A DNA stretch of 64,000 nucleotides from Candidatus Omnitrophota bacterium (GCA_044225175.1 JBGAJA010000002.1:280991-344990); one strand, 5' to 3'; positions 1 to 48,813 are shown, numbered from the stretch's first letter. A program made the numbers and translations. Notes: generated by a model not told the origin, from the sequence alone.

Positions 1-310
1 ACCCTGCTGATATCGATATTGTTGCTATCATCAATGATAATTATTCAGGAAAGAAACGATTGAAACTTAAAGGAGAAGAAATCTCCAAAAAGATATTTCA
101 TTCTCATTATGCCAGATTTACCGATTTTGTGGATGTGTCTTTCATGACGCAAAGACAGTTAATGGAGGATTGGGGCGTTAAAACAACACTTGCTAACTTT
201 GGAATTGTATTGAAGGCACAAGACCTTTGGGATGAACCTTTGACCCATGCACGCAAAAGCCATATCAACCGTTTGGAGAAGGCACAGGATCTATTATCTG
301 AGTCTCAAAG
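1..310 (+). other. Domain: C-terminal part of a minimal (Pol beta-like) nucleotidyltransferase fold, copy 1 (inside the giant CDS)
   Basis: The translation DIDIVAII...FTDFVDVSFMTQRQLMEDWGVKTTLANFGIVLKAQDLWDEPLTHARKSHINRL aligns at about 43 percent identity with copy 2 near nt 5150-5345. Confidence 0.5.
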
Positions 311-3300
311 AATACTTGATCTTAATAAACCCTACATTACTGAAGGAGAAGAGGCTTTAGGACGAGTATATAGTCGTTTTGACCAGGCCAACCTATTTCT
401 TTTGAAAGATTATCCACAGTTAGCCTTATCTGAAAACAAAATGAGGAAATTGGCTGTTGAAATCAGACATTATTTAGATAGATCCACTAGATTTGCTGAA
501 AAGCATGCAATGCTTCAATCTATCCAGAATGAATTAATAGAGAGCATCTATTTGGCAAGGCGGGAACTAGTACGAAGGGAATTGGCAAACTTGAATATCA
601 AGGCATTTCAACCTTCTGTAAATATCCGTGCTGGACCTAGAGCCAATCTAGTTCCTATTTCTATTCCTGCAGCAGTTATGCTGGCCTCTATTGGCCTTAA
701 CCCAGACCCTGCCTTAGCAAAGGCATTCATTATTCTAGCAATGATTTTCTTCTTGTTCCTTATTGGAAAGATAATCATCAGTTTTAAGAATTTTTCATGG
801 AGACTTCACCTACGACTGCCATGGACACGTGTTCGAACATTGACTCCCAAAGAGATGCTAGAGACCCTCGAAGACATTGCCATGTCTTATCAGAAGCAAT
901 GGAGCAGAGTTTCTAATCAAAAATTGTTCTTTCAAAGAAAGACAAGAGCATTAGCTAAATCCATTGTCAGAAATACCATCCGAGTAATTTCTCATACCCA
1001 AGCCCCTCAGAATAATTTAAAGTCGGCGATTGTCTTTATTCAGAGACAATTTGAACCTAAAGAAGCAGGACATAATAAAAGCCAAATAATGTATGAAACA
1101 TTACTATTGGCCTTTTGGAAGACAGTTTCTCAAAAGACTTCGATGAAAGACCAAGGAACAAATTTGATTGTCTGGTTGGATAAGTATATAAGCATGGGAC
1201 TGTTGTACTATGCCATTATTGTCCAGATGAAACTGCTTCCGATTGCGATTTTCTCCAGGTATGTGTTATCAAGATGGCGTATTTATATTGAATACAAGAA
1301 AGAAATGAATAGTCATTTTAGAGACGACCCAGAACTCCAAAAGTGGGTCGTTACTATGCAAACCATGATTCAAGAAGGCAAGAAGAATATAGACATAGTT
1401 AATGCTATTAAGAAAGCACCTTTTGCCCACATATCTATTGATCTTTACAAAGACTTGCTGACCTCTTCTTATATGAATTCAAGATCGTTCTATCTTTATA
1501 GTTATTTATACATCTTTGAGGAAATCCAAAGATCATCCTCGAGCGCCAACAGAGAATTTAATATGCGGCAGACCATTGGCATGGTTTTAGGAGATGAGGG
1601 ACTAGAGCTTTTTGACTACGTTACGAAAAGGATGGGTGTCCAAATTCTATTTATTGAGAGAAAAGACGAGGATTTAAATGATCCGAACTTTATTAATCTA
1701 AGAGAAAGAAAAGTTTATCTTAATCAAGGTTCTTCTTTTGTGATGAATGCATTTAGGTTTTTATCACTGGCACGTTTCTTTTTAAACCATAAGTCTTTGG
1801 GTCCTTATCATTTCTTAGTTGATGTTAAAGCGGATAAACTACCGCTGAAATTTCTCTGGAAGTTATTTAGAAATCGATTTAAAGATCCCACAATCAAGGA
1901 CTTATTTAACAAACTGACGGTCAAAGAACGTAGACATTACTTTTTTGTATTATGGCATGCCATGGGTATGGGAACGGCTGTTTCTTGGATCAAATGGGAC
2001 TACACCTATTTAGTTGTCAGAAAATTAAAATTATTAGAACAGACCTCAATATTCTTAAGTGAAATTCATCTTTCCAAACAAAGAATCCAAAATATTAATA
2101 GCGATTATTCGTTGAGTAGCCCTGCTCCACCTAAGCGTCTGGCCTCTAAAGCCATGATATTACCAGCCATCAGACTATTCATTCGACGCATTCATTATCT
2201 ACCCTATCTAGCATTCATCTCTGTTATTTATGTTCCAATTATTGCAGCCATTGATTGGAGCAGATTAAGATTTCTAGCGGATCCTTTTATATGGTTATTC
2301 AATAAGCTCATTGAACTAGCAGAATTCTTGAATCTAAAGGAGTTAGCTCGAATATTGAAAAAAATCGCCCATCAAATCAATGAGGCCCTTCAAGGTGTTT
2401 GGCATATGGTGGAGAATTGGGCAATGAACGTTTGGGAAGTAATAGGTCCATACATTATGAATGTCGCCCATGCTGCTGAAGGATTACTGCACTATTTGAT
2501 TTCCCCTGCAGCTTTCATGTTGGGTGCTGTAGTTATAATCCTCACATACTTCGTCACCAAGCTCATGTTTAAATTTATTCTAAGAAAATCCAGCGAGAGA
2601 ATCGTATGGGTAGGGGCAACAGTAAATATTCTAAAGAAGTTAAACAATGATCCTATTCTAAAAATCATCGGGATCGTTGCAAATAAAATTAGTGTCTGGG
2701 TTGGAGGGCTGTTTTTTATTGGGGGAGCGATTGCGATAACCACTGAGGCTCTTGCTTTCATAGGAAAACACCTTTTGTTAAGGTGGGATTATCTTCGCGG
2801 GTTTAAATATAAAATTTCACTAAGCGATGATTCGTACAAAGCATTTTTCAAAATGATTCATGAAATGTTTTCTCGTATCCAATCACATCTGCCTAAAGAT
2901 TTAAATGAAGACTACAGAAAATTAGTCGTAGAACAAATTCTTAAGAAAGAAGAAGAAATCAAGGAACTCATGACGCAGCTTATTACTTCTGGCATGCGAA
3001 GTATGGAAGAAAATATCACTTCTGCTGCGCCGGTAGCTTCATTAAGAAATGACCACTGGATCAATTTAATACTGGCACCGATGGATTTATTATCGAAGGA
3101 CATCAATGCGCGTTTAGAGACATGGCACTCTATGGGGATTCCTTTTACGCATGTTCATTTTTATTTTACATGCGGATCGTTCTTTGGCATGGCGCTTCTT
3201 ATTTTGATCTTTCTTCCCAGAGAATTCATTAAAATTTATGTCGAAGACATTAAAAGACTTTTCAGGTTTATCTTTACTAAACGAATCAACAGCTTATCCA

Positions 3301-6300
3301 GTGAGTTAAAGAAATTGAGAGGTTTACAAGACATTGACTTTACATTAGAAATTGCCGAGAAAAGATTAGGGCGCTTCACGTATGTTATTAAAGCTTACGG
3401 CCAAGAATTTAATACACGATTAGGGGTTTTTACAAGTGTGTCTAAACTATTTATAAGAACATTCTTTAATAAACCAAGGCCATACCTCTTGCCTGCACCG
3501 CATATAAGCAAGGCTTTTAGTCCAGGGGAAGATGCAAAGAATATAGAAGAAGGTTCTCCTAGTCAAAGTCGAGATGTTGATTCAAGAGATAAGATTCAGA
3601 CGACAACTGTTTTCATGGGTAGTCTGAGTGTTATGCGTGCAGGACCAGAAATACATTCCGTTGATAGCATTAATTGGACGTATGAATTGGCCCATCGCTA
3701 TGGTCCAGTTCTTTCACACGATTTAGTATTAATCCTTGGAGCTTTTGTCTTAATAGTAATGTTGTTTTTTAACAGAATTATTACAGAGTGGATCTTTAAG
3801 TTTATATCGAAAAGTAATGCAAGAATTCTTAATAAGGATAGCAATCCCTTGAAGATCAGAATGACCTCCATTGAAAACCACACCATAGTCATCCAATACT
3901 CCAGAAACAAATTCACAAATATCTATCGCAGCACAGACAATGATGTTTTGCTGATGGATTCCCAGAGACGATCAAAAGATATTTTTGTATATAAGGCTGC
4001 CCAGGCAATTTCAATTAAAGAAGATCAAAAGTTGAGACATGGAGACATAGAGATATTGGTTGAACCAGGCAGTATGGTTACGATTAAGAATTTCGGGAAA
4101 AAGCCAATTAAGATTATGACTGAGTCCGAACTCTCATTAGATGACCAGGACTATTTTAGAAGAGGTACAGCGGTAGTATTAGGTGGCGGTTATTTGTTGC
4201 TTGTATTTAATCGTATTTTGTTTGATTTTAACCTCATAGAAGTTGCTGGATTAACTCTGGCCCTCATCTTATTTCTAGTAAAAAGAACAGACGATGATAA
4301 ACCCACAAAGTTAAATTATTTAATTTATCGCATCCTTAATAGAACAGAAAACATCATTAATTACATTGATGATTTCTTTAGAAGGACAAACAAGAAGCGC
4401 TTCTTCCTTATTCCTCAATTTTTCAGGTCATGGAAACCATCTACTCAGTCTTTTAATGATGATCAAATTGATTTTGTGGTTTCTTATTTGCATGGTTTAG
4501 TCGCATCTCGTAAGATTTTCTCAGAGAATGATTTAATATGGACGTATCGACTAGCTAAGAGCTGCATTCAAGTTAGACAAATCGATCGTTTTGTTCAGGA
4601 ACATTTGGAAAAATGGGCTAGGGAGAGCCGGGATTTACGTGTTCTTTCGGCTATTATTACCGGATGGATCCAAGCTCCCCAAAGCAGAGGAGGCATTGAT
4701 AGATTAACGCAGATATTGATTAAAACCCACGGATTTTCTAAGAAAACAGTTACATCCTCTCTTTTAATGAAAATTGCCAAGCAAGGTGCGGACCAGGCGA
4801 GGTATGAATCGGTAGATGATGATGTCTCAGATGATAGGGTCCCTTCTTATAGAAAACAACTGAGGGACCGCTCGATCTACAAGCATCAACGTTTCGGTCT
4901 TCAAAAGAAAATTTTAAGACGCGTAGCATCTATCGATGTCACGCGACTAAAAGCATTCTTAGAAGAAGAGTTGTCCAACATCTCATCACAGAAAAATTCA
5001 ACTCAAGGGTGCGTTAAAACAATCATAGTCTTTGGAAGTTTTCTTTATGGAACTCGTCGAGAACCAACTGATTTGGATGTTTATGTCATTGTTGAAGGGG
5101 TTGAAGTTAAACAACTCGTTAAGAAGACAGTAAACATTCCTAGATATGTGTTCTCAGATGAATACTCACGATTAACACGATTTGCAGATTTGCATTTTAT
5201 GAATCGAGAAGAGTTAATAAGAGACATAGGTTTTCGAACATCAGCAGCGAATGTCGGAATTGTGTTAAGAGGAGAAGGATTAAGAGATGAGCCTTTGACC
5301 AATGCTAGATCCTCCGATTTTAATCGTCTTGTCCGTGCCTCAACGGCCATGAAACATGGCATGAAAATGATAGAAAGCACTGTCGAACATGATCGTCGTT
5401 ATCCTGATGCCATTCCTGTATGGAGGGCCAAAGCATGGAGACGTATTACGGAATCCCATTTATTTATCCAAGAGGTAGATTCTTCTGTGACAGCGCACGA
5501 GGATTTTATTGAGGAACTATTATATGGGATGGAGCGTTACAATGAAGATCCTCATAAGAACCATGATGATTTTCAGTGGCAGCTTAAGCGCACTCACGCC
5601 TTAGTAATAGCATCATTACATTATGCCCGCATGTCATTAGTTTGGCGTTATTTAAGAAGTGTTCGTCCTCCTCAAGTTCCGACAATAAGACATAAGAGGG
5701 CCTTTGGCATAACGGTTTTGCCTGTTGTGTTGTCTGGTTTATTTACCGCAGCATGCTCCATCATCTTTATTGTAAGACACCAGTTATCGATGGAATACGA
5801 GTCTCTAGTGAACATAGGAGCGCGCCTAGAAATTTTAATACCAATTCTCTTGCTGTCAGGGATCTTTGCAGTACCTTTCCGCAGAAATTCTAAGAAATCT
5901 GCTGTGATTAAAATTCAAGGCAAGCCAGAGGAAGAATATTTGTTAATGCTGAGGTTTTTCTTTGTCAATTTATTGTCTATCAATTTTCGGCTTATGCAAA
6001 TTACAACTCAGGAGAGCCCAGATCGAAGAAAGTTCAGACCCATTATTAAAGACTTAGTGAACATTAGCCGTAATTTTAAGGAACGGTTGAGCGCTACACA
6101 GAAAGCTTATGATCAAGAATCAATTCCTTATAAACGAAATTTACTTTCTTCCCGCATCGAGTGGATGACAATTATGAATACTAAACTGATCAGGGCTTGG
6201 GGTTTATTGACAGATAAAGCTAATGGCCCCGCGGTCAGCCAAATTCTTTTATTTCAAGCCGATTCTTTGTTTAAGAGATACACCCAAGCCCATTTAAAGA

Positions 6301-9300
6301 AAGTAGAAAGAGACCGCATTCGATTAAGAAGCAGGCACTTGGATTATCCTACAGGCAAAGGGCGTATTTGGACAAACGTGAAAGAGAATGTGGATAAGCT
6401 TACCCGATGGGCCCACACTTCAACTAAAATTTCTAAAGGAATGGAAATCACAAGCCCTCAAGTCATTGAAATTAGTTTTAAAAGCCGGTGGCAGATGAAT
6501 CGTTCCAATGGTCATGCGCTGAATTCTGTGATGGCAAATCAAAAGAAATTCCAATTGATTGTTGAGACGCTTCAAGAATTAGAAAAGCAATTAATCACCT
6601 ATAAAGAAAAAGGATCCATAGACCCTCCTTTATTAATGCAATTATTTGATCCGATCGTCAGATTACTAGATCAATTTATCGGTCGAGATACGAAGACAAT
6701 TATTGAAGAGCTTGAGTTAGCTGCATCAGCATGGCAAACCGCTGAAATGCTTCTTAAAAGCAAGAATTGGAAATGGGGAATGACAACGATCAGTTGGGCC
6801 AAAAGATTTTTCGAAGGACGATTAAAAGAATTGCAACAGCAAAGGATTTATTATGAACAGAACAAACTCCTTCCTACATTTGGCATGACATTTGAACGGA
6901 ATGCCTCTATTTTTCAGCGAGTCGTAGAAATCGAAACAGACGGAAAGTGGAATACAACTGTCATCACAAGACTCATCAAAGACCTAGAACCCAATCAAGA
7001 TCCAGATATTGTACTTATCTTAAATTCTTTGATGGACGCTCAAAAGCATTACGTACAAGGAAAACGAGTACGTGCAAGCAAATATCTGGCTGAGGCCAAG
7101 CTAAGGGTGGGAAATTCGAACCTGCTCTATGAATTCTTAATGATTTATAGAGACCATGTTAAAGGCTTTATTTTAGATGGATATCTTTTAAAAGATGCTC
7201 ACCACACGGGTTTTATTAAAGCTTTTGAACAATTTTTACTAGACCACCCTCAAGAAGTGAGATTCAAAGCAGTATGGACATACCGTTTCTTCCAGGCTGT
7301 TTTTGTCAGATTTAAAGTCGAAGCACCTAAGCAAAAAGGAAAAAGGGTCATAAAAATTCCTAATCCTTTATTTATTTGGTTCTCAAAATTAATTGAAACG
7401 ATTGAATCCAAAGGGTTCTTTCAATTACCTAAAGCTGAACGTGAAAAAATCCCCTATCAAATTGCGCAGGAATTAGAACTTGATCTGCCACCAACGAAGG
7501 TTGAAGAAACGATCAAAGCAGTGACGTCTTACATTCCAAACACCCAACATCTTCCAATAGCAGCTAATAGTGTGGACCAATGGCTGATCGATTTAGGATT
7601 ACAGGCCTTAAATTATTCACGCAATACACTCTTTAATAGACGAGGAACTCGTATTTTTATCAGAGCCCTTAATTTACATGTGCAGCAAATGCAGGATGTG
7701 ATTGAATGGATTGCAGAACAAAGCAAACTCAGAGGTAGAATCGTCTATGCTAAGCCCACCCCCAATAAAACTCCCGAAGGCGAAGAAATTTGGCACTTAA
7801 TTTCTTCTAAAACTTACGCCAGACTTGACCCAAAAGACAGAAAAGTTTACCACAAACTTGAAAATATTCCTGATCCTCATCTCAAATGGCTTGGTATTGA
7901 TCGCGAAGATCTGAGAAGAACATTTACTTTAGAGATAGCTAGGCAAGCGGTTGAGTTAGGTAAGGAAACAGGTAATCAAACCATGGTTGATATTTATCAA
8001 CCGTTCTTGGATTGGTTGCAGCAATCCTATAGACCAGATCCTAATGAGTCTTCTATCTCCATGCAGGAGCCATTTGCTTATATCGAAGGTAATGCCATAG
8101 TGATGGCATCTATTTATTCCAAACTTTCCCCGCATCTAGAAAGGCGAGTCCAAGAACATGAACGCCTTCATTTGAAACACCCCACGATCACTGATGAAAT
8201 GGTCATTTGTCAAAAACATGCTCAAGCTGTCCTCATGGATCAAATCAAAACAATCAGCACCTTCAAAGGCACAAGTTTTTCAAGCCGTGACTTTCAAAAT
8301 AAAATCAAGGCTATTTTAGCCTATGAAGGAAAATCTAAGGAAAAAGTCCAGAAATTCATAAGAGTGGCCATCAAAACCATGGCCCAGCTTGTCCAAGATA
8401 ATGATCAATTGCAAATATTTTATGGTTTATTAGGAGAAATTATAGGCGTATATCAGGTGCTTTTTAGCCAGAATACCGTGCTGGAAGGTCTTGATTTGGG
8501 AGACATTAAAGAAATCAATTTAGAATTGGCTATTAATGGCAAACCCCGAGAAATGGACTGCGTTACTTCTCGTGCCCTCATTGAAATCAAATTTCAACTG
8601 ACATGGTACAAATTGCTTGAACAAATCATTAATAACCGTAAGGATGGAGGGAGTTCATATTTAGCATCTTTGGAATGGGAATCACTTGGATTTGGACACA
8701 TTCGTAAAATTATCTATTTTGGATACAAAGATTATGGTTCTATGGCGCAAGGCCTTATTGAGTACTTAAAGAATCATCCTGCAGATCTAAGTCATTTGAA
8801 ATTCACAGAAGAAGGCTTCCGTTTTGAGATTTCTTTCCAAAAGTTGTTTGATTTTCTTTTTTCTAAAGAAATCCAAAAAGCAGTGCAAGAAGAGAACCGG
8901 CGACGATCTCTAGTGAGCTATTGGCAGGAAAGATCTCAAGCTGTATTTGAATTGATCCAACGCCTTGCCCATCGTTTGAGCGAAGAGCCTAAAACATTAG
9001 TCATTGCTGTCCATCAAGCAAGGAAAAAGGACTTAGCCATTTTAAGAAATCTAGGAAAAGGAGTTACGAGCCAAAGTGATTCTAAGGAAGAGTTCTTGAG
9101 CTATAGGACCTCCAAATACATGCAATTCTTTTACACTATTTGGCCTAAGACTTTAGGCCATCTTAAAGGAATTGGAATGATTCCAAGTGAACATGAAAGT
9201 CATGTGATTATCCGCAATGGTGACAATCAACCTAAATGGACAATTTCACTAGAAGACCTAAGGAGGGCTTTAGAAGACATATATTCCTTAGACACATCTT

Positions 9301-12300
9301 CAGAGTCCGTTTTATCTACCGAGGAAGTCATAGACCTCGTTTGGGTCAAATATTCAGAACCTACTGAAACTCTCGGGCTGGAAGCTCAGAGAACTTGGCT
9401 GTTAGAAAATAAGATCCAAAATCAAGAGTGGTCCCTGGAAGAGATTGATTATCGCCTAGAAAAACTCTTTGAGGCCATCCAAATGGATGAACTTTTTAAC
9501 CTGGAGATAGATCAACTCAATATTAAGAAATCTATTGAGCAGAATGGTTTTCTTAACCTTCCTGAAGACAAGTTAATTGCACTAGCTTCAAAAATCAAAG
9601 AATACCATGCCCACTTGCAGGAGTTCTTTGATCTTCTTTATCAAGCCTGTGAGCGATTCAATCAAATGGCTCAGAAAGAACGTGAACGTCACAATAGATT
9701 GGGCATTTATGATCGTCAGAGAATATTATTGCAAGTGCTTTTAACATGGAACCCCACAGACCGATATTTAAGGAGAAAACTGGCTTTTATCAGTAATTTA
9801 CTCGGTCAGCAGGATCAAGCCGAAGCAATCCTCTTGGGCGTAAGACCGCGGGCTGAAGATGATGTGATTGAGGCTGCTAATGTGAAATTAGACATGGCCA
9901 GGCATTTGTATGGACAATTGAAAATAGACTTAATGTACCGCCGTTCTGCTCTAGGCGAGATATTAGAAGAAATATTATCTAAGTCCCGTCAAGGCAGAGA
10001 CATCTTAAGAACTTTTATTTTATCGCACAAAAAGGGCTCACCTATCCATAAGTTGTCAATGGTCTACTCCAAATTAGCTTCATTCCATGAATTAATTGGA
10101 ACAATTTACAACCGGCTTTCAATGACAGCCTATTTACGCAAATCTCAAGAGTATAATTTAATGGCTTTTCAATCCATGGTTCATGCCGTGTCATTAACTG
10201 TTCAGGCCCTTAAAATGGATTCTAATAACTGGCATGCCATTCGTAAGCTACCCATGATTCTTTCGCTTACTCAGCGAACGATTCAGAATCTCAAGATCAC
10301 CATTCAAAACTCTGAAAATATCTATAAATCATTGGAAGAATTAAAAAAAGCCTTAGGAGATTTAAATATACCTTCATTTCAATCACACAAAGCAAGGATT
10401 GATGAAATTATTCAGGAAAAGCTTGAGATATGTTTGTTTTATGAAAACCTGAGCGGACGTTTTGTTGCAGTGACAATAGAAATGCTCAAAAAGGATCTCT
10501 ATACCACTCAGGAAGATTTAATAAAAGCGATCTTAGCTAACAGTGAATTAGGGAAAGAAGATGAGATTCGCAGATTAGAGGAAGTCTTCAGACATAGAAT
10601 GCGAGAACTCGATCTTATTGCTTTAGACATGGCCATTATTTATTTCTATTTTGAACTTGAGGAAGAGCTGCGTGATTTAGAGAAGCTTCCTGCTTATCTA
10701 CAAATGGTCACAGGCCTTGAGAAAATTCAGATCCGAGATATTAAAGACAGGGTAGTTAATAAAAAAGATTTTTATGCTTTGTTAGGGATAGAAGTGACTG
10801 AGAAAACAACTACGGAGGAGGAACCTCAAAACATTCTTTATAATAAAACTAATATCCGACATTTCTTGATCCAAGATCCCTTAAGATTGGAACAGCTATA
10901 TGAACGTTTACAACAACTTCGAGGATGGATGAAATATAAAGAATTTCAGTCCTTGTATGATCTTTATCAACAGGTCAAAGATAAAGTGACAGACTTCTTG
11001 AACCAGGGGAATGATGTCATTGAGTCATCTAAGAAAGAGGTGACTCCTCAATTAGCCAAGTTAAGAAATTTACGTGTAGGTCCACAAGGATATGTAACAC
11101 AGCGTCAGCAATTAGAGCAAAAAATTGAGAATGTTGTCAGAAAAGTTAAAGAGCAATTAAGTCAGGGAAAAGACCAATTAATGCAGTATTTTAAAATTAT
11201 CCAAGAAGTAGAGGCTATTTATAAGTCTAAATGGATTAAGGAAGTTAAAGCCAGGATCGAATCAGCCATTAAGGAAATGGAATTACTGCAACACAGCCAG
11301 AATAAGAACTATTTGTCCAGATGGCGTTACCAAGAGCTTTTAAATCAAAGAACCCATTACGATGTTATCTTGGCACCTTTATTTGAGCATAGAGGTCTTC
11401 TTAAAGAAATCCACCAGATCATACAAGAAGTTGAAGGAATGCTGGCTCAGAAAGATATTCTCAATGGCCATATGTCAACATGGGCATTAATGTGGCAAGC
11501 GATCAAAGAATCTTATGAGGATGTCGCTTTTGAAGATCAAGCTTTTGTACAAATCTCTATGAGTAAATTTGAAATGATGATCTTTGCTAAGAAATTAAGA
11601 AAAACAGTAAAGACCAACCAGGATTTCGATACTCTTAGGAAGAGGCATGGGGAGTTGGAGAAAACTTACATGCTACATAACGGCATTTATTTAAATCCAT
11701 CCACAGAATACTCTTTCAAGGAAAAAGAGATCAAAGATCTTTTGAGTCAATGGCAACAGAAGTATGAAGAGTGGATGGCCTTGCCATTTGATTCGAAGAA
11801 TTTCATCCCCTATGCATTGAGAGTAAAGGTTATTTATAAAGAACTGCTTGAGTCGATCAAGGACATTCAAGAAAAGATCAGGATTTTAGTCAATGAAAAG
11901 AACTCAGTACTGCTTGTCCAAATAGAAGATCTTGAGAAGTTTGTCAATGAGTTCTTTGTATGGATCGAAGGGGAAATCCTACCTACATATAAAGGTCATA
12001 CAAGATCTAAGACGAATTTACATCAATTTATGAAAATATTTAGAAATTACATTCATTCTTTAAAAGGGATATTAGCCACTGATGTCGACGATAAGAATTA
12101 TCTGCGATTAGTCGCGCAGGGTACAGAGAAACTGAACTGTTTAGCATCTTTAGCGGTATCTTTACAAGTTATTTATAACGAGGAACTTGGTTGTATAAAA
12201 AATACTCTGTTAAAATATGTTCCCCGCTTTGAGACACGTTCCAATGAATACGATCTCGCAGAATCTTTTTCTGCAAGTATATTCGGTGTTAAACAAAACC

Positions 12301-15300
12301 ATCCAAGCTCTCTTACATACAGAATAAGTCAAGCTCAATCAGAATTAAGAAAATGGTTAAATTATAAAGATGGTCCTATGCCTTACTGGGAGTGGTCTAA
12401 TGTAAATTTTATAACTTTAAATGTATACCTTTTTTTATGGTCCAATAATAATTCTTTGCCAATCCCACCTTTATATGAGGTAGTTCAAAAAGCATACAAA
12501 GATATTGTATCTAGAAGGTTAGAAGTATTCCAAAAGAACCCTAATCCTCTAAGAAAACCTATGACTACGATTAGTATTCTTAAGGGGTGGAGGACCATAC
12601 AAGGCGTTCTCAATCGGGTCTTAACTAATCACATAGAAGGATGGTCTTTCTTGCTAATAAAGAGAAAATTTGGCGACGTATTTAATAAAGCCCAATCGAT
12701 CAAGGAGAATAATGCAAAGAAATTATCTGTTCATATTTGGCCTTTGATGTTGATTGGGATGGGATTAACCATAGGGCAGCAGTACGGTATCTATGGAATC
12801 CGTGCAGGGGCTCAGTCGCAATATGTTCTTGGTTCGCAACAGATTTTATTTTCTGTGCTGGGCGTATTAAGTGGCATTTTGGCTTTGCTAGTAGTTGGCC
12901 TTATCCTCATATTCCTTTCGGATATCTGGAGAGCTTTTAAAGATCCCAATTCAAAAATTTATAGGATTTTAGATGTTGTTTTAACTGTCCTCATGATCCC
13001 TTTATGGATTCCTGTGAGCTTCTTAATGGGATTATATGTATTTGTTCTTTTGAAACACCATGGTTCATCTCAATCGGTCCTTTTTAAACAAGAAAGAATC
13101 GGACATCAAGATCAACCATTTATGATCTACAAATTCTGCTCCATAATTAATACTTCCAACGGAAAAGAGATTGTTCTCAAGCATTTACGTAAATCTGGTT
13201 TAGATGAAATTCCTCAAGTCATCAATATTTTCAAACGACAAATGTCATTATGGGGGCCGCGGCCTGTTCGACAGGAAGACATTGATAATGGCCGTTATCC
13301 AGACTATTCATTAGAAATACGAAGAAGATTACCAGGATACCTAAGCCTTTTCGTTCTTGACCGAGGCGCCGGTGATGGACATTCTCCCAAGGACCAGAAA
13401 ACGATTGAAGCACAAGGCAAGCGATTCCAAGAATTGTCACAGCGGGAATATGAGCATTGGAGCCCTATCCTTGCAATTAGTCTTATACTTGAATTTGGAT
13501 TTTATCTTTTGAAATTTATAGTAAGACTATTTGGTTTTGGAAATAAACTCAGAGGGCCGCCTTCTTTAATTATAAATGATGTAAAAATCCTGCCTACGCT
13601 GACCCCAGAAGATACTCTCGAGCTTCCTCCTCCATCAGATTTAAAAGACAAAGGTTTTCTTACAAAGTCGATATTCATTAAAGATCAGATCCAACAAGGC
13701 CAATTGAGTACGATTGTTCTTCCAGATTTCCCATATAACTCTCCAATATTAATCCGTATATTTGAATGGCTCGATGGGGATGAATCCATCCGAGAATTGA
13801 TGGACATAGTCTACGGGTATATCCCGTCTTTAAAATTGTTTAACCATGTGTCTTTGATCACGCTTTTAGATGAAGTCAGAACATGGAAACCAAAGAACCT
13901 GATTGCAACTATTGGTGCACAAACTAATACACGAGAAGAGATTCAACGACGATTATTCGATGCTATTAATCATGGCGCAACAGGTGTTTTGGTGGTCTCT
14001 GGCGGAGGAGCATGGCGACGAATATTCACGGGTATTGTCTCTATATTAAATATCCTCTCACCGCTTCTTATCACAGTATTTATCGCAAGGATCATTCAGC
14101 GTAAATATCTTTCTATGGATTCAATGAAAATCCTGGAACTTATCAGTGAAATGAAACAACGAGGACAGATCGCTCAAACAATTACTGTATGGGCTGTAGC
14201 TAATCCTTATCGAGATTCTATTAAAAGGATTGAACATAAGATTGAGTGTGGGGCACAGAGAATATTGATCCAACCGCCAATTCTTTGGGAATTATTTACA
14301 TCGTGGTGGAGAGAAGCCCAGACAAGCAAGCTTAAAGAAAAAATCATTGTAGGCATTCCTTATATTGCATCATTGAAGTCGTTGGAATTTTGGTTTTTCT
14401 TAATGAATATTAAGACTTCAAACTGGCCATTCTTTAGAAATCGATTGACCCAAGATGCTTATAATTTGCAACAGCAATTTATTCAGGTCCAGAAGTTAGG
14501 GAAAAAAGCTGAAGAAACATTCATTGAACAATGGAATGCCGATTTCAAATCTCGAGTGCATCATTTGTCAGGATTTATAGGGGGCCATCACATGCCTGTT
14601 ATGGCATGGGGACGGGTGGGCCGCAAAGAAATCAATGAGATGAGAGATAAGCTGCAGACCCTATTAGGAACAGTGATTGAATGGGGAGGGAATTCTTATA
14701 GCGTAGATGCCAACATGGTTGTGTTACATCGAGTCTTAAGTGTTTTACTTCGGATGATTGATGAAAAGAAGATCGATCTTAAAGGTACCTCTGCGTTGAT
14801 CGAGAGGATCTTTTTTATTCATACCATTGCCCCCAATAGTTCTCAGCTTATGATTGATCCAAGGCCTCTGTATAGAAATAAGAAGTTTATTGGACGCTTT
14901 GATATTCTTTTTGATTTAAGGCAGCTGGGCAAATTATCTGTATCGGCACTCGAGAAAAACATAGTCATGGTATTAAATATCAACTCTCAAGAAGTTCCCT
15001 CGAAGGCCCTTATGCTTTCGGATCCAGCCCCCATTAGCCAAAGCAGAATCCTCTGGCAATTTAACTACGCCTTTTGGAGAAATCTAAAAGGTCATTTGGA
15101 TGCCACAGGTCAAGACTTCGATGCATCCATTGCAGGCTCTCCGGATTCTAACGATCAATATGTCGAATATTTAGCCAAAAGATTTTTAATCAAGCTCATT
15201 GCTGCCATTAAACAGGAGCCTTCCCAAAGATATTTCTTTCTTGAGATAGGAAGCGCAGGGGCGAAATTCGTTCAACTGTTCTTAACTAAGCTCATGGCAT

Positions 15301-33980: not shown

Positions 33981-36900
33981 ATGAAGAAAACTTTTCATAT
34001 TTGTCTCTCAACCCTGTTTCTTTTAAGCACCATTCCAAGCCAAATATGGGCTGCCCCCGTCATAGATGCGCCGCCTATTTATGTCAGAGTAGTTGACTTA
34101 AACAATCAGGTGACAGAGCTCAAGCGCGATGTTCTTAATCAAGAACGGGTGAATCGTGATGAAGAGATTGCAGCTAGAGAATTGGCCCAAGAAAATGCAT
34201 TGTTGATTCGAAAAATTGAAGAGTCTCAGAAAAATGCCCTACATAATGCCCCAACCAGCGACTTATTTACAACCATTGACACCATGAAGCAGTTAAAAGA
34301 GGTCATGGAAGATTATGGCCGTAAGTTGGATAATCGCAATCAAACGATGATTGCCCGCAATGAAGAGATTTCTTCCCTACGTGCCAGGATCGATAAACTC
34401 GAACATCTTTTCGATGAAGTCATCAAGCTTTATAACAATACGCAAGCAATGAAAAATCCTCCCCTTGCGCAGGAAATTCCAGCAAATTCCTTGGTGGCCA
34501 GCTTAGAAGAACAAAAAGAAGAGTTGTTATCAAAAAACAAATTCCTCTCCGAGAAATATAAACAATTGATGGAGTATAAACAGGAATTGGCCAATACCAA
34601 AGATCAGCTACGTAAGCTGCAGGCAGAGAAAATACAACCACCTTTAGCTGTTGTGGTTCAAAAAGAACCTGGCGTAAACAATAATGAAGAAATACAAGAC
34701 TATAAACAGCAATTAGCGGATGCAAAAGACCAGATTAATAAACTTCAGAGAGAAAAAACACAATCACCCTTAGCGGTTGCTGTAGTTGAAAAAGAAGCCA
34801 AAGCAAATAATAAGCAAGAAACGCTTATGTATAAACAGCAATTAGCAGATGCTAAAGACCAAGTTACTCAATTGCAGTCAGAGCACAAAGATCTTTTAGA
34901 AAGTGTAGATCAATTAAAGTCTCAAATTAAGAAAATCAGAGATATGCAGTCTTCTCTTGAGGAGAAAGACCAGCGATTAGGTCAAATGAATGAGATGATG
35001 TTTCAAAAAGACCGACAAATTGCAGAGCTTAAGAATGATTTGTCCCAAGCCAATGAGAATTTGAATAAAGCCAAAGCAGAAATTGCCCTAAAAGACAATA
35101 CAATCAAGGGCCAGCAAGCAGCCTTAAGTAAACAACAGCAAACTCTAGCAAATCTCCAGCAGGAAGTTTTAGATGTTAGAGCAAATATTAAGAAAGTTCA
35201 GTCTAATTATAGTGAGGATCAAGGCGGTTTTGAACGCATTCGTCAAAACATTGTAGCTTTGAAGTCTAAGTTAAATGAAGCTCAAGGCCGTGCTGCATTG
35301 GCTAGTACCCAAGAAGTTGAAATGATTAAACTGAAAGGTGATATTGCAGCTTTGACATACCAGCTTCAAAATGCCCAAGAAGATTTAGTTGAATATAAAA
35401 ACACAGTGGCCCAACAAAAGAAGATCGTTGCTGAACAAAAGACTCTCATTGATCAGCAAAAAGCTGCTATTGAAGAACATAAAGCCATCATTGAGCAAGA
35501 ACGAGTGATCATTGAGAAAGAAAAACAAACGATCCATGAACATAAAAATGCTATTGATTTGCTTAACAGTCAATCTCTCCAGAAGGAACAAGGATTAAAA
35601 GATAAGGATGTGAAAATTGAAGGGTTGAATTTGCTGGTGCGTTCACAAGATCAAGATTTGAAGAATAAAGAGCTCCAGATGGCTCAAATTGAGCAACAGA
35701 AAGTTCAAGAGATTTCCACATATAAGAACATGGTAGGAAATCTGAAAGAAAATCTGCAATCTTTGATACAGCAAATCAACGCATTAAAAGATGATGTGGC
35801 TAATTCTTTTAATATTCAAGCTCAGATGAAAGAACGCGTGGGGCTGCAGGATATTTTGCTTTCTAAATATCGAGTTTTAGAAGATTTAGCCTCACAAAAA
35901 TGTGAACTGCTCATGCAGCTAGCTATCAAATTTAAGGACCGAAGAGAATATTACAAAGATCAGCTTAAGAAAACAGTAGTGTACTGGCAGGATTTGAATT
36001 CACAAAGCGAAGGGCAAATGGAAGGCTTAAAAAAAGAAATCTCTTCCAAGCAAGAACAGTTAGATGAAATCCAGAAACAATTTGAAGCCAATAAGGCTAA
36101 GAGCGCTCAATTAGAGGGCATGTTAGATGTGTATCAAAAGAAAATTGATGAGGGTGATGTTCAGGCCAAAGAGAAGACCAAACAAATCGATCAACTTCAA
36201 GGAGATTTACAAACCGCTTTAGATGCCGTTGATCAACGACAAAAAGACATTGTAAAGGTCAGAGACTATTTTTATGAACTCGAGAAGAAATCTTCAGAGA
36301 AAAGCAAGGAATTGCGAGAGAAGAATCAGGAACTTGCTTTACTTAATGCAAGTTTAGAAGGCAAAAAAGAAAGCATCTCCCAATTAAATGCTAGACTTGC
36401 CTCCATTGAAGCAAAATTAAAAACGTCAATTGATTCAAGTGCTTTGGATCAACACAAAGAACAGATGACGGCCTTGCAGGAGAAATTGACTGTTGCTGAA
36501 GAAAAACTCAAGACAACTGTCGATCAAGCAGAATTGAATCAAACTAAAGAATTCCTTAAATCATCTACAGATGAAATGACGGAACTCAAGAATTCTTTAA
36601 AAGATAAAGAAATGCAAATTGAACAAATCAAGAAAGATAATGTAGATAATGTTTCGCTTCAAAAAAGTTTATCGGAAGCTAAAGAGAAAATAACCAAACT
36701 AATGGAGGATTCTTACTACAAAGATAAGCAAATCCAGCGTCTGAACATGCTCGTTTCGCAAAAAGACAAAACGAAGAACAAGGATGCAAAGATTAAGGAA
36801 TTGACCAAACAAATCGATGAGCGTAATCAACAAATTAGTTCACTCAAACAGCAGATAGAAAATTTGCAAAAGCCAACACCCATGACCAAAGAGGACAGAG

Positions 36901-37079
36901 ACATAGGTGTTTTAAAGAAGCAGCTAGAACTCGCTCAAAAAGAAACTGCACAAGCCAGAGCAACGGCCAGAGATAAAAATAAACAAGCTAAAGAATTAAA
37001 TGACCAAATCGTCATTCTCCACAAACAAATCCAAGAGCTTCAAAAGAACATCGATTCCTTACGAAATATTTCAAAATAA
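33981..37079 (+). CDS. Large secreted coiled-coil protein (1032 aa)
   Basis: The protein has a signal peptide (MKKTFHICLSTLFLLSTIPSQIWA). Almost all of it is Q/E/K-rich heptad-repeat sequence. Confidence 0.75.
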   Translation: MKKTFHICLSTLFLLSTIPSQIWAAPVIDAPPIYVRVVDLNNQVTELKRDVLNQERVNRDEEIAARELAQENALLIRKIEESQKNALHNAPTSDLFTTIDTMKQLKEVMEDYGRKLDNRNQTMIARNEEISSLRARIDKLEHLFDEVIKLYNNTQAMKNPPLAQEIPANSLVASLEEQKEELLSKNKFLSEKYKQLMEYKQELANTKDQLRKLQAEKIQPPLAVVVQKEPGVNNNEEIQDYKQQLADAKDQINKLQREKTQSPLAVAVVEKEAKANNKQETLMYKQQLADAKDQVTQLQSEHKDLLESVDQLKSQIKKIRDMQSSLEEKDQRLGQMNEMMFQKDRQIAELKNDLSQANENLNKAKAEIALKDNTIKGQQAALSKQQQTLANLQQEVLDVRANIKKVQSNYSEDQGGFERIRQNIVALKSKLNEAQGRAALASTQEVEMIKLKGDIAALTYQLQNAQEDLVEYKNTVAQQKKIVAEQKTLIDQQKAAIEEHKAIIEQERVIIEKEKQTIHEHKNAIDLLNSQSLQKEQGLKDKDVKIEGLNLLVRSQDQDLKNKELQMAQIEQQKVQEISTYKNMVGNLKENLQSLIQQINALKDDVANSFNIQAQMKERVGLQDILLSKYRVLEDLASQKCELLMQLAIKFKDRREYYKDQLKKTVVYWQDLNSQSEGQMEGLKKEISSKQEQLDEIQKQFEANKAKSAQLEGMLDVYQKKIDEGDVQAKEKTKQIDQLQGDLQTALDAVDQRQKDIVKVRDYFYELEKKSSEKSKELREKNQELALLNASLEGKKESISQLNARLASIEAKLKTSIDSSALDQHKEQMTALQEKLTVAEEKLKTTVDQAELNQTKEFLKSSTDEMTELKNSLKDKEMQIEQIKKDNVDNVSLQKSLSEAKEKITKLMEDSYYKDKQIQRLNMLVSQKDKTKNKDAKIKELTKQIDERNQQISSLKQQIENLQKPTPMTKEDRDIGVLKKQLELAQKETAQARATARDKNKQAKELNDQIVILHKQIQELQKNIDSLRNISK
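34575..34960 (+). repeat. Three tandem units of about 126-129 nt (about 43 aa) inside the coiled-coil gene
   Basis: Units start at 34575, 34701 and 34830 with tataaacag(g/c)aattagc. They encode YKQ(E/Q)LA(N/D)(T/A)KDQ...LQ..K.Q.PLAV.VV.KE. Confidence 0.6.
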
Positions 37080-43234: not shown

Positions 43235-43318
43235 TGCTGGGAGAGGGAATCGAACCCTCACAGCCGTGAAGCTACTGGTTTTTGAGACCAGCGCGTATAC
43301 CAGTTCCGCCATCCCAGC
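43235..43318 (-). tRNA. tRNA-Leu (anticodon CAA)
   Basis: The sequence was folded by hand. The acceptor stem is GCTGGGA/TCCCAGC. The anticodon stem is CTGGT/ACCAG with loop CTCAAAA. A long variable arm is present. The T-arm is GAGGG-TTCGATT-CCCTC. The discriminator is A. Confidence 0.85.
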
Positions 43319-43324
43319 AAAATT

Positions 43325-43402
43325 TGGTGGAGTTGAGGGGGGTTGAACCCCTGACCTCCTGCATGCCATGCAGGCGCTCTACCAAAACTGAGCTACAACC
43401 CC
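43325..43402 (-). tRNA. tRNA-Ala (anticodon GGC), CCA encoded
   Basis: The acceptor stem GGGGTTG/CAACTCC carries the G3:U70 Ala identity pair. The anticodon loop is ATGGCAT. The T-arm is AGGGG-TTCAACC-CCCCT. Confidence 0.85.
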
Positions 43403-44730: not shown

Positions 44731-45687
44731 ATGCAAGAGCGGATCATTCAATTTTTAAAACAAACAGACGGCTATGTTTCTTGTGAAGAAATCAGCCAGC
44801 AGCTTAATATGTCGCGGGCGGCCATTTGGAAGCATATGCAGGATTTGCGTGGCTTAGGTTATGAAATTGCCGCCGTTCCTCATTTGGGATATCAACTGGT
44901 CTCGAGTCCCGACGCACTCTTGCCCCACGAAATTCAAAGCGGGTTAAAAACTAAACTGATGGGCCAAAACGTATTTTCCTTTGATACCCTTCCCTCTACC
45001 ATGGATGAAGCATTTCGACTGGGAATGTTAGGAGCTGCAGAGGGTACGGTTATTTGTGCGGAAGCACAAACCAAGGGTCGTGGACGTCTTGGCCGTACAT
45101 GGGCTTCTCCTAAGGGAAAAGGCATTTACTGTTCCATCATTCTTCGTCCTAAGTTATCCCCATCTCAGATGTCGCAGCTTACGTTGATGACAGCGGTTGC
45201 CGTTTGTGAAGCTATCAAGAAAGTCACAAATCTTGAGCCAACGATCAAATGGCCTAACGATCTCATTTTAGGTTCTAAGAAAATCGCCGGCATTCTAACC
45301 GAGTTGCGGGCCGAGATTGATGCGCTCACATTTGTCGTCGTGGGACTAGGCCTTAATGTGAATTCAAGTGCCAGCCAATTGATTGAGAGCGCCACATCAC
45401 TCAAACTTGAAGGTCAAAGCAATGTGAATCGTGTTGAACTCTTACAAGAAATCCTCCTTTCGATTGAGAAATGGTGCGGCAAGATTTTAAAAGGTCAATT
45501 TGATGAAGTTTTAGATTATTGCCGCAAGAATTCTGCGACATTAAAGAAACGTGTTCGCATTGCGGATGCCACAGGTGTTCAAGAGGGCAAAGCCATTGAT
45601 ATAGATAAGGACGGGGGCTTAATGATCCGTCTGAATAATGGCAAGGTTATTAAGAAAATTGCAGGGGACGCTCAAATTTTAAAATGA
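44731..45687 (+). CDS. birA: Bifunctional biotin-[acetyl-CoA-carboxylase] ligase and bio operon repressor BirA (class II, with N-terminal HTH)
   Basis: An N-terminal wHTH is present (ISQQLNMSRAAIWKHMQDLR). The biotin-binding motif is GRGRLGRTW. Confidence 0.9.
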   Translation: MQERIIQFLKQTDGYVSCEEISQQLNMSRAAIWKHMQDLRGLGYEIAAVPHLGYQLVSSPDALLPHEIQSGLKTKLMGQNVFSFDTLPSTMDEAFRLGMLGAAEGTVICAEAQTKGRGRLGRTWASPKGKGIYCSIILRPKLSPSQMSQLTLMTAVAVCEAIKKVTNLEPTIKWPNDLILGSKKIAGILTELRAEIDALTFVVVGLGLNVNSSASQLIESATSLKLEGQSNVNRVELLQEILLSIEKWCGKILKGQFDEVLDYCRKNSATLKKRVRIADATGVQEGKAIDIDKDGGLMIRLNNGKVIKKIAGDAQILK

Positions 45688-46838: not shown

Positions 46839-46839
46839 A

Positions 46840-48397: not shown

Positions 48398-48407
48398 GAA
48401 TATATGT

Positions 48408-48780: not shown

Positions 48781-48813
48781 AAAATAAGTCTCTATATTTA
48801 GGAGAATCTTTAT

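What the first reader, a model, noticed from the sequence alone, without database searches (positions are those of the whole stretch)
1..5350. Two Pol-beta-type nucleotidyltransferase domains about 5 kb apart, suggesting an ancient internal duplication of the N-terminal megamodule
nt 1-310 (DIDIVAII...ANFGIVLKAQDLWDEPLTHAR) and nt 4930-5350 (VFGSFLYGTRREPTDLDVYVIV...ANVGIVLRGEGLRDEPLTNAR) align over about 65 aa at roughly 43 percent identity. Nucleotide identity is about 65 percent. Each domain is followed by TM helices. NTase domains in an envelope or glycan megaenzyme could nucleotidylate a sugar-phosphate, a lipid, or the protein itself. The first copy is cut by the window edge, so further copies may exist upstream.
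Basis: seen in the sequence. Interest (0 to 1): 0.6.

Follow-up and report, generated by a model that had tools for sequence, protein, structure and literature searches.

The report
Repeated nucleotidyltransferase cassette in giant protein
Two old, diverged copies of a rare ~400-residue enzyme cassette with a Pol-beta-type nucleotidyltransferase core sit 5 kb apart in a giant (at least 9,476-residue) membrane protein of an uncultured Omnitrophota bacterium; the copies are real, but what they modify is unknown.

Summary
Window aa 1-196 and aa 1688-1886 of one giant ORF (nt 3-28430, frame 3) are homologous: E = 3e-21, z = 33.7 against shuffles.

The repeated unit is not a bare NTase domain, and it is not the whole 5-kb stretch. 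It is a ~400-aa cassette: an N-terminal helical domain, a Pol-beta NTase core and a C-terminal helical bundle. A TM/beta-rich/TM segment probably belongs to it too. Copy 2 is complete (nt 4458-5663). Copy 1 starts at profile position 199 of 399, so its first half lies upstream of the window.

Both copies keep the catalytic residues (DxD and the third Asp; GS is visible only in copy 2). Each is followed by a TM hairpin whose charge pattern puts the cassette in the cytoplasm.

An exhaustive search of 1.84 billion proteins found only eight other carriers. All are huge multidomain proteins, and one has three copies. Fold and profile searches place the core nearest the MNT and ANT/KNTase/HalB-type NTases. 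No curated subfamily fits.

The two window copies are not sisters, so the duplication is ancient or the cassettes were shuffled in. The substrate is unknown.

Each carrier protein also has a short lineage-specific junction motif ([IM]RAGP here) that brackets the cassette.

The parts
3..28430 (+). Giant ORF, at least 9,476 codons, open at the window's left edge. It is the host protein of both cassettes.
   Evidence: ORF list and translation. About 40 hydrophobic helices. Pfam domains Bac_transf, GT9, Methyltransf_11, Rce1-like/CPBP and Peptidase_M50 lie further downstream.
3..593 (+). Cassette copy 1, C-terminal half only (aa 1-197). It matches family profile positions 199-398. It holds DxD (DID, nt 9-17), the third Asp (nt 132-134), the ANxGIxL motif (nt 189-218) and the C-terminal helical bundle. 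The GS motif and everything N-terminal of it lie upstream of the window.
   Evidence: hmmsearch with the 12-member profile, E = 1.5e-69. Residue table. Coordinates.
621..641 (+). Junction motif N-IRAGP-R, 12 aa after the end of copy 1. This is the same position as RSELR/GARLA after the cassette in relatives.
642..788 (+). TM hairpin after copy 1 (aa 214-234 and 240-262). Flanks carry 3 and 5 K/R; the loop DPALA has none.
   Evidence: Kyte-Doolittle scan and charge count.
3630..3650 (+). Junction motif V-MRAGP-E, upstream of the unit that contains copy 2.
3723..4280 (+). Probable N-terminal extension of the copy-2 unit: TM helix (nt 3723-3782), beta-rich segment (nt 3843-4148) and a hydrophobic stretch of one or two TM helices (nt 4167-4280).
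   Evidence: The same layout precedes the cassette in P0001 (three times), P0002 and P0008. hhalign of their beta-rich segments against the window segment gives probability 72%, E = 3.3e-5. HMMER alone gives E = 0.16. Treated as probable, not proven.
4458..4781 (+). Copy 2, family-specific N-terminal helical domain (aa 1486-1593). Motifs: L..YRLA (family consensus L.RLA.TV) and D.R..AAI..GW.
   Evidence: Alignments. AF2 model helices 2-108.
4848..5309 (+). Copy 2, Pol-beta NTase core (aa 1616-1769). It holds the family-invariant Tyr1616 and Gln1619 of 'PPSY..Q' (Tyr at nt 4848-4850), GS (nt 5034-5039), DLD (nt 5070-5078) and the third Asp1729 (nt 5187-5189).
   Evidence: Pfam NTP_transf_2 at 21.6 bits against a cut-off of 21, and Polbeta at 21.3 bits. 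hhalign 96.6% to the bona fide NTase P0013. PDB profile hit to poly(A) polymerase over GS...DxD. AF2 strands at module residues 185-248. Residue table.
5316..5663 (+). Copy 2, C-terminal four-helix bundle (aa 1772-1887) with the conserved motifs W-R-x-K-A-x-R-R and iDPS.
   Evidence: AF2 helices 287-401. Foldseek alignments to KNTase and AadA span 250-280 columns, covering both domains.
5709..5882 (+). TM hairpin after copy 2 (aa 1903-1925 and 1940-1960). Flanks carry 5 and 6 K/R; the loop has none and holds 2 acidic residues.

Best explanation
The two segments are paralogous copies of a discrete cassette that defines a rare, undescribed protein family.

Anatomy. The cassette has three parts: a family-specific helical domain, a Pol-beta-superfamily nucleotidyltransferase core with an intact GS / DxD / Asp catalytic set, and a C-terminal helical bundle arranged as in ANT/KNTase-type enzymes. 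It occurs only inside very large multidomain proteins of uncultured bacteria. In this case the host is an Omnitrophota giant membrane protein.

Inferred mechanism. Each copy is held at the cytoplasmic face of the membrane by the TM hairpin that follows it. There it most likely binds Mg-NTP through the carboxylate triad and the conserved K/R of the helical bundle, and transfers a nucleotidyl group (probably AMP) to a hydroxyl acceptor.

What is shown and what is inferred. Homology, fold class, conservation of the catalytic residues, cassette boundaries and the rarity of the family are shown. Cytoplasmic location, catalytic activity and the type of reaction are inferred. The acceptor is unknown.

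Origin. The two copies arose by an old duplication or by separate insertion of cassettes. They did not arise by recent duplication of a 5-kb block.
For: - Homology of the copies: E = 3e-21, z = 33.7.
- Family: a HMMER scan of 1.84e9 representative proteins with the window-only profile found 8 strong carriers (E from 1e-133 to 1e-23) and one fragment. All carriers are 1,100-6,037 aa. P0001 is a complete 4,388-aa protein with 3 copies.
- Only the cassette is shared between the window protein and these carriers.
- NTase core: NTP_transf_2 and Polbeta hit 7 of 12 cassettes. Window copy 2 scores 21.6 bits against a cut-off of 21. P0001 as a whole scores 39.6 against 26.9 for Polbeta.
- The window-only profile hit the bona fide minimal NTase P0013 at library-wide E = 3e-4, and hhalign gives 96.6%.
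- The best PDB profile hit is poly(A) polymerase, aligned on GS...DxD.
- The AF2 model has pLDDT 86 and pTM 0.87. In Foldseek, 17 of the top 18 PDB hits are Pol-beta NTases: HalB, KNTase/ANT(4'), AadA, TUT7 and HI0073.
- Catalytic residues are kept in both window copies and in 9 of the 11 cassettes in which all three motifs are visible.
- Hairpin flanks are K/R-rich and the loops acidic or neutral. By the positive-inside rule (established knowledge), this is an N-in/C-in topology.
- The copies are not sisters.
Against: - Every match to characterised NTases is weak: Foldseek E from 0.014 to 0.5, TM-scores 0.2-0.4, and Pfam scores at the threshold.
- No curated subfamily model fits.
- The structure model rests on only 12 sequences.
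- P0004 has lost all three carboxylates (NLN, N) and P0008 the third. The cassette can therefore persist without catalysis.
- Topology rests on a crude hydropathy scan and charge counts. Published work notes that topology predictions for such giants are unreliable.
- Nothing identifies the acceptor.
Confidence: 0.6

Rival explanations
1. The cassette is a self-priming or protein-modifying NTase. It would nucleotidylylate a tyrosine of the giant protein itself, with the invariant Tyr of 'PPSY..Q' as the candidate. It might extend an oligonucleotide from that tyrosine, as HalB does, or poly-AMPylate it, as MntA does to HepT.
For: HalB is the best Foldseek hit (E = 0.014, probability 0.99), and it primes synthesis on one of its own tyrosine hydroxyls (PMC13434031). 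The best NCBIfam hit for copy 2 is MntA, though weak. Tyr and Gln of 'PPSY..Q' are invariant in all 11 cassettes where that region is visible. They lie in a segment modelled with high confidence, pLDDT about 95.
Against: Similarity to HalB and MntA is at superfamily level only. The Tyr is also kept in the catalytically dead P0004 cassette, so it may be structural.
Confidence: 0.15
2. The cassettes are non-catalytic pseudoenzyme or scaffold modules, for example dimerisation or nucleotide-sensing units that organise the giant protein at the membrane.
For: P0004 (NLN / N) and P0008 (third Asp changed to Asn) have lost catalytic residues while keeping the rest of the cassette. Much of the conserved sequence lies outside the catalytic core, in the helical domains. 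KNTase-type NTases are obligate dimers (own knowledge), so paired copies could form an intramolecular dimer.
Against: Both window copies and 9 of the 11 cassettes in which all three motifs are visible retain the full carboxylate triad, and GS is kept in 10 of 11, across roughly 25-40% overall identity. This argues for selection on catalysis.
Confidence: 0.15
3. One reading: the whole N-terminal ~5-kb 'megamodule' was duplicated in place, and only the NTase part is still recognisable.
For: The true unit is larger than the NTase core, about 400 aa for certain and probably 650-750 aa. Both copies are followed by a similar TM hairpin. Repeated domains from old duplications are described as the rule in Omnitrophota giant proteins (10.64898/2026.06.07.730766).
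Against: There is no similarity at E < 0.01 between aa 260-1212 and anything after aa 1960. TM layouts differ: about 8 helices after copy 1, against a roughly 2,300-aa TM-free stretch after copy 2. The copies are not each other's closest relatives. In relatives the cassette sits in unrelated contexts.
Confidence: 0.05
4. The similarity is a chance or compositional artefact, or the domains are not NTases.
For: Single-sequence searches were uninformative: no PDB hit beyond a spurious tailspike, Pfam just under threshold when scanned inside a 1,600-aa chunk, and no hits in the word-index search.
Against: z = 33.7 and E = 3e-21. Independent carriers share the same 400-aa cassette. Pfam, hhalign, PDB and Foldseek evidence converges.
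Confidence: 0.01

Closest known systems
Minimal Pol-beta-superfamily nucleotidyltransferases (Pfam NTP_transf_2 PF01909 and Polbeta PF18765; MNT/MntA type)
   Same: The hG[GS]...D-x-D signature, a third carboxylate on a later strand, and the alpha-beta-alpha-beta core. These are the best Pfam and NCBIfam matches. hhalign gives 96.6% to a bona fide member.
   Different: Minimal NTases are free-standing proteins of 100-130 aa, usually paired with a HEPN partner. Here the core is embedded in a 400-aa cassette with two extra helical domains, inside giant proteins. Scores are at or below the family thresholds. The MntA equivalog scores 15.7 bits against a cut-off of 60.
Two-domain antibiotic nucleotidyltransferases: KNTase/ANT(4') (1KNY), ANT(4')-IIb, and AadA/ANT(3'')(9) (5G4A)
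   Same: An NTase N-domain followed by a helical bundle. Foldseek alignments cover about 250-285 columns, which is both domains. A weak ANT(9) NCBIfam hit appears in 2 of 12 cassettes.
   Different: Sequence identity is 9-14% and TM-scores 0.24-0.39. The cassette is not a resistance-gene-sized soluble protein. It has an extra N-terminal helical domain and the invariant PPSY..Q segment. Nothing indicates an aminoglycoside acceptor.
HalB, the NTase of the Hailong anti-phage system (9DBJ)
   Same: It is the best Foldseek hit (E = 0.014, probability 0.99). It is a small NTase with a helical part, and it works together with a membrane protein.
   Different: HalB is a free 218-aa protein encoded next to the HalA channel gene. 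No such operon is present here, and identity is 13%. The cassette is fused into housekeeping-type giant proteins rather than sitting in a defence island.
Giant multi-enzyme, membrane-anchored proteins of Omnitrophota (West-Roberts et al. 2023 preprint; Nielsen and Lui 2026 preprint)
   Same: The host organism is Omnitrophota. The ORF is at least 9,476 aa with many TM helices, tiled by unrelated enzyme domains, and has internally repeated, sequence-diverged domains. [quoted passage not shown]
   Different: Neither paper mentions nucleotidyltransferase domains, this cassette or junction motifs; term searches returned 0 occurrences. No SecA_DEAD, C39 or dockerin domain was detected in the part of the protein that is visible.

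Membership tests
Pol-beta-type nucleotidyltransferase superfamily | hG[GS] motif at the end of strand 1 | tested here: met
   Copy 2 has VFGSFLYG (GS at aa 1678-1679). GS is kept in 10 of 11 cassettes and is GG in P0005. In copy 1 this motif lies upstream of the window and cannot be seen.
Pol-beta-type nucleotidyltransferase superfamily | [DE]h[DE]h metal-binding motif 9-13 residues after GS | tested here: met
   Copy 2 has DLD at aa 1690-1692, 11 residues after GS. Copy 1 has DID at aa 3-5.
Pol-beta-type nucleotidyltransferase superfamily | Third catalytic carboxylate on a following beta-strand | tested here: met
   Asp1729 (ADLHF) in copy 2 and Asp44 (VDVSF) in copy 1. The position falls on the predicted strand at module residues 242-248.
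Pol-beta-type nucleotidyltransferase superfamily | Profile match above the curated threshold | tested here: inconclusive
   Isolated copy 2 scores 21.6 bits on NTP_transf_2 against a cut-off of 21. Inside a 1,600-aa chunk it scores 19.9, below the cut-off. Its Polbeta score of 21.3 is below 26.9. The relative P0001 passes both. hhalign to a bona fide member gives 96.6%.
Pol-beta-type nucleotidyltransferase superfamily | alpha/beta NTase fold | tested here: met
ANT(4')/KNTase and AadA-type two-domain NTases | NTase domain followed by a C-terminal helical bundle | tested here: met
   Predicted helices at module residues 287-401. Foldseek alignments span both domains of 1KNY and 5G4A.
ANT(4')/KNTase and AadA-type two-domain NTases | Sequence-family membership (NCBIfam ANT models) | tested here: not met
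   Only ANT_9 at E = 0.024, in 2 of 12 cassettes, far below the cut-off.
ANT(4')/KNTase and AadA-type two-domain NTases | Aminoglycoside or other antibiotic acceptor | not testable with these tools
   This needs biochemistry.
MNT-HEPN (MntA/HepT) toxin-antitoxin | MntA equivalog score, and a HEPN partner with the Rx4-6H motif | tested here: not met
   MntA scores 15.7 bits against a cut-off of 60. The consensus of the C-terminal helical domain has no conserved His after the RR pair. The cassette is fused into a giant ORF and is not part of a two-gene module.
CD-NTase / cGAS-DncV-like | Match to CD-NTase/SMODS/Mab-21 profiles | tested here: not met
   No such family appears at E <= 1 among the Pfam or PADLOC hits of any of the 12 cassettes.
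GlnE / GlnD adenylyl/uridylyl-transferases | Match to GlnE/GlnD_UR_UTase profiles | tested here: not met
   There were no hits at E <= 1.
Hailong HalB | Free NTase encoded next to the HalA channel gene; Tyr-primed oligo-dA synthesis | tested here: not met
   The gene context is different: the cassette is embedded in the giant ORF. The priming chemistry is not testable here.
Omnitrophota giant multi-enzyme membrane proteins (descriptive class) | Omnitrophota host; product around 10 kaa or more; many TM helices; several unrelated Pfam domains; repeated diverged domains | tested here: met
   All named MutS homologues are Omnitrophica/Omnitrophota. The ORF is at least 9,476 aa, with TM helices, five enzyme families and internal repeats. 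A 19,116-aa giant gene sits at the same syntenic position in GCA_964583975.1.

The most novel reading that the evidence does not exclude
The carrier proteins may be bacterial polyproteins. They are strings of unrelated enzymes and membrane units joined by a short, lineage-specific junction peptide: [IM]RAGP in the window, R[SA]ELR, G[AS]RL[AS] and AGLE[EG] elsewhere. That peptide could be a processing site. The NTase cassette is the one unit common to all of them. It could be a self-priming (Tyr-linked) or protein-modifying nucleotidyltransferase needed for maturation or regulation of these assemblies.
Probability: 0.12. Interest if true: 0.8.

Novelty: new variant of a known kind. Interest (0 to 1): 0.45.

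Why it matters
Giant genes of Omnitrophota and similar uncultured bacteria are mostly unannotated. This work defines one of their building blocks precisely: a bounded, foldable ~400-aa cassette with a recognisable catalytic core. Only about nine proteins in 1.84 billion representatives carry it. It is small enough to express and test.

If the cassette is active, these membrane megaproteins carry nucleotidyl-transfer chemistry alongside glycan-assembly and intramembrane-protease domains.

The junction motifs that bracket the cassette also give a concrete, testable handle on an open question raised in the giant-gene literature: whether such giants are processed into smaller proteins.

Tried and rejected
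- Word-index homology searches with copy 2 and with the 12-member profile found nothing.
- Extending the contig upstream failed. Neither the source nor a close relative was found in genome contigs or in the first metagenome scan. MutL was found only on a 4.5-kb Logan contig. MutS is not on record in the gene-position index. The source is an NCBI contig of 793,076 bp, and its name was not retrievable.
- The first AF2 run, with only the two window copies, was unusable at pLDDT 49.6.
- Single-sequence phmmer against the PDB gave only a spurious tailspike hit.
- P0009-P0011 and P0014 from the exhaustive search are TPR proteins. They match a 30-aa stretch repeatedly ('G.WD.AL..YR.SL') and were rejected as spurious.
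- A DNA-level palindrome or repeat origin for the junction motifs was rejected, because the codons vary synonymously.
- The syntenic 19,116-aa gene of GCA_964583975.1 could not be used as a length proxy. Its readable C-terminal 2,430 aa are not collinear with the window protein and contain no cassette.
- A literature search for the motifs returned nothing relevant.

Full report
**1. The observation**

The first 28.4 kb of the window is one frame-3 ORF. It is open at the left edge and ends at nt 28430, giving at least 9,476 codons.

- BLASTP gives E = 3e-21 with 28% identity over 202 columns.
- A chunked self-comparison gives aa 1-194 against aa 1688-1884 at E = 1e-19. This is the only similarity between the N-terminal part and anything else in the protein.
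- The Smith-Waterman score is 209, against 33 +/- 5.2 for shuffled sequences, z = 33.7.

The homology is about three times longer than reported. The nucleotide identity is 45-55%, not 65%, so there is no DNA-level repeat.

Each copy is followed by two hydrophobic helices, at aa 214-262 and aa 1903-1960.

**2. What the repeated unit is**

The word-index homology search found nothing. An exhaustive HMMER scan of 1.84 billion representative proteins, using a profile of just the two window copies, gave 14 hits.
- Eight are strong, with E from 1e-133 to 1e-23. They are proteins of 1,100-6,037 aa.
- One is a 170-aa fragment of the family.
- One is a bona fide minimal NTase (P0013).
- Four are TPR false positives.

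P0001 is a complete 4,388-aa protein on a 100-kb contig and carries three copies.

Aligning all 12 copies shows that conservation extends about 190 aa upstream of the NTase core. The unit has about 400 positions, in this order:
- a helical domain with motifs L.RLA.TV ... N..IE.EL..W ... D.R..AAI..GW;
- a linker with an invariant P-x-x-Y-x-x-Q;
- the NTase core with motifs yGSy.YG.R..PtDlDl ... yaR.T..aDv.F.T ... ANvGI.L;
- a C-terminal helical domain with motifs vWrgKA.RR..EaNLl..iDPS ... Ar.slvWr.

With this profile the window has exactly two copies. Aa 1486-1886 is complete. Aa 1-196 matches profile positions 199-398, so the first half of copy 1 lies upstream of the window. No other frame or region matches.

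In P0001 (all three copies), P0002 and P0008, a TM helix, a beta-rich ~120-aa segment and more TM helices precede the cassette, and these segments are homologous to one another. The window has the same layout upstream of copy 2, at aa 1241-1426. HMMER alone is not significant there (E = 0.16). hhalign gives 72% probability and E = 3.3e-5. The family's full unit is therefore probably 650-750 aa.

**3. Is it a nucleotidyltransferase?**

- Pfam NTP_transf_2 and Polbeta match 7 of the 12 cassettes. Isolated window copy 2 scores 21.6 bits against a gathering score of 21. P0001 as a whole passes both thresholds.
- The module profile aligns to P0013, which scores 56.6 bits on Polbeta, with 96.6% hhalign probability across helix-strand-GS-strand-DxD.
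- The best PDB sequence-profile hit is S. pombe poly(A) polymerase, aligned exactly on GS...DxD.
- With 12 sequences AlphaFold gives a confident model, pLDDT 86 and pTM 0.87.
- In Foldseek against the PDB, 17 of the top 18 hits are Pol-beta-fold NTases: HalB, kanamycin NTase/ANT(4'), ANT(4')-IIb, AadA, TUT7 and HI0073. The E-values are modest (0.014-0.5) and TM-scores low. The KNTase and AadA alignments span both the NTase domain and the helical bundle.
- NCBIfam and PADLOC give only weak MntA, ANT(9) and PDC-S09 hits. GlnE/GlnD and CD-NTase models do not hit at all.

The cassette therefore belongs to the superfamily, nearest the MNT and ANT/KNTase group, but to no curated family.

The catalytic residues are intact in both window copies: DID with Asp44 in copy 1, and GS, DLD and Asp1729 in copy 2. 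P0004 (NLN, N) and P0008 (third Asp changed to Asn) have lost them.

**4. Location and likely mechanism**

Both post-cassette hairpins have K/R-rich flanks (3 and 5 for copy 1, 5 and 6 for copy 2). Their loops are short, contain no K/R and carry 1-2 acidic residues. By the positive-inside rule (established knowledge) the hairpins are N-in/C-in. This places the cassettes, and the long region after copy 2, in the cytoplasm where NTPs are available.

My best reading is a membrane-tethered, Mg-NTP-dependent nucleotidyl (probably adenylyl) transferase. By analogy with ANT enzymes (own knowledge), its helical bundle would help bind the NTP and the acceptor through the nearly invariant Lys and Arg of W-R-x-K-A-x-R-R. 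Activity and the acceptor are inferred, not shown.

One lead concerns HalB, the best structural match. It primes synthesis on one of its own tyrosines (PMC13434031). The family has an invariant Tyr, window aa 1616, in a confidently modelled segment just before the core. Against this, the Tyr is also kept in the catalytically dead P0004 copy.

**5. Age and mode of the duplication**

Over the shared 195 residues, copy 2 is 38-39% identical to cassettes of P0001, P0002 and P0003 but only 28% identical to copy 1. The two window copies group together in 58 of 200 bootstrap trees. P0001's three copies are likewise not each other's nearest relatives; its copy b is 53% identical to P0002.

Outside the cassette the window protein shares essentially nothing with the other carriers. 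The carriers combine the cassette with unrelated domains: RidA and a methyltransferase in P0002, crotonase in P0008, GNAT in P0006.

The cassette therefore behaves as an old, mobile building block. 'Ancient' is right. 'Duplication of a 5-kb megamodule' is not supported.

**6. Context and host**

Every named close homologue of the window's MutS (59-77% identity) is labelled Candidatus Omnitrophica or Omnitrophota. The source is a 793-kb NCBI contig. The neighbours are housekeeping genes: MutS/MutL, AccA, RlmN, a biotin operon and MnmA.

A related genome, GCA_964583975.1, has the same synteny and a 19,116-aa gene at the same place. That gene is not collinear with this one over the part I could read.

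Giant multi-enzyme, membrane-anchored proteins with repeated, diverged domains are described as typical of this phylum. A repeated domain is therefore not surprising in itself. Neither paper mentions this cassette or NTase domains.

The carriers differ widely in composition (GARP fraction 0.20 to 0.36). No carrier was found in 185,579 species-representative genomes with the patterns used. Two were found in metagenome contigs.

**7. Junction motifs (beyond the finding)**

Each carrier is punctuated by its own short peptide, and this peptide brackets the cassette. P0001, P0002 and P0008 use R[SA]ELR (10, 5 and 12 sites). P0003 and P0004 use G[AS]RL[AS] (4 and 13 sites). P0005 and P0006 use AGLE[EG].

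The window protein uses [IM]RAGP. All five RAGP tetrapeptides in all six frames of the 64-kb window lie in this ORF. My rough estimate of the chance expectation is about 0.06. One site lies 12 aa after copy 1. Another lies ahead of the TM/beta-rich/TM/cassette unit of copy 2. Most sites sit just before TM helices.

The codons vary synonymously, so the constraint is on the peptide. Several carriers also end about 10 residues after a last motif. This looks like a unit-boundary or processing signal. I found no description of it in the literature.

**8. Verdict**

The cassette is a new, very rare variant of a known enzyme kind, embedded in a class of giant proteins where repeated domains are common. 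Interest is moderate. The junction-motif and polyprotein reading is the part that could raise it.

Noticed in passing
window nt 624-638, 3633-3647, 19578-19592, 21819-21833, 22980-22991; variants at nt 12801-12812 (RAGA) and 21909-21920 (RAGI): A recurrent peptide, [IM]RAGP, occurs 5 times, only in the giant ORF and in no other frame of the 64-kb window. It mostly sits just before TM helices and at the boundaries of the NTase cassette units. The codons differ synonymously, so the constraint is on the peptide. Relatives have their own equivalents that bracket the cassette: R[SA]ELR, G[AS]RL[AS] and AGLE[EG]. It may be a unit-boundary or processing signal.
   Followed up: partly
window nt 19491-19592 and 21741-21833 (aa 6497-6530 and 7247-7277): A near-identical ~30-aa element, ...MMSSLLGFMSPIRAGP, occurs twice (62-69% identity), each time ending in the junction motif and followed by TM helices.
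   Followed up: no
window nt 16380-19382 (aa ~5460-6460): About ten tandem ~100-aa repeats, 30-42% identical to each other (up to E = 8e-68 for blocks of three). They have no Pfam match and are interrupted by TM helices around aa 5891-5934.
   Followed up: no
window nt 12963-13487, 21135-21491, 23451-23588, 25119-25400, 25845-26264: The same giant ORF carries Bac_transf (polyprenyl-phosphate sugar-phosphate transferase), GT9 heptosyltransferase-like, Methyltransf_11, CPBP/Rce1-like and Peptidase_M50 (site-2 protease) domains. Envelope-glycan enzymes and two intramembrane proteases therefore sit in one polypeptide. The proteases are candidates for processing the protein itself.
   Followed up: partly
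L005 nt 15213-22502 (GCA_964583975.1, contig CAZOXU010000003.1): A related Omnitrophota genome has the same MutS/MutL synteny, with a 19,116-residue gene in the position of the window's giant ORF. Its last 2,430 aa share only one 118-aa stretch with the window protein (34% identity, window aa 2523-2640, nt 7569-7922). Giant genes at one locus appear to turn over fast.
   Followed up: partly
Relatives P0004 (aa ~2284-2496) and P0008 (aa ~1600-1852): Some cassettes are catalytically dead. P0004 has NLN in place of DxD and Asn in place of the third Asp. P0008 has Asn in place of the third Asp. The rest of the cassette, including the invariant Tyr, is conserved in both.
   Followed up: yes
window nt 27216-27506 (aa 9072-9168): The only similarity to the carrier proteins outside the cassette is a weak match to P0008 aa 161-257 (E = 2e-5), in a TM-rich part.
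   Followed up: no
window nt 55564-60237 (+) and nt 33981-37079 (+): Two more large ORFs lack an informative annotation. One is 1,557 aa with no Pfam hit. The other is 1,032 aa with only coiled-coil-type weak hits.
   Followed up: no
window nt 43235-43402 (-), nt 44731-50765 (+): Two adjacent tRNA genes, and a complete-looking biotin cluster: BirA-like, BioF-like aminotransferase, alpha/beta hydrolase, methyltransferase, dethiobiotin synthetase-like AAA_26 and BioA-like aminotransferase. This is ordinary chromosomal context.
   Followed up: no
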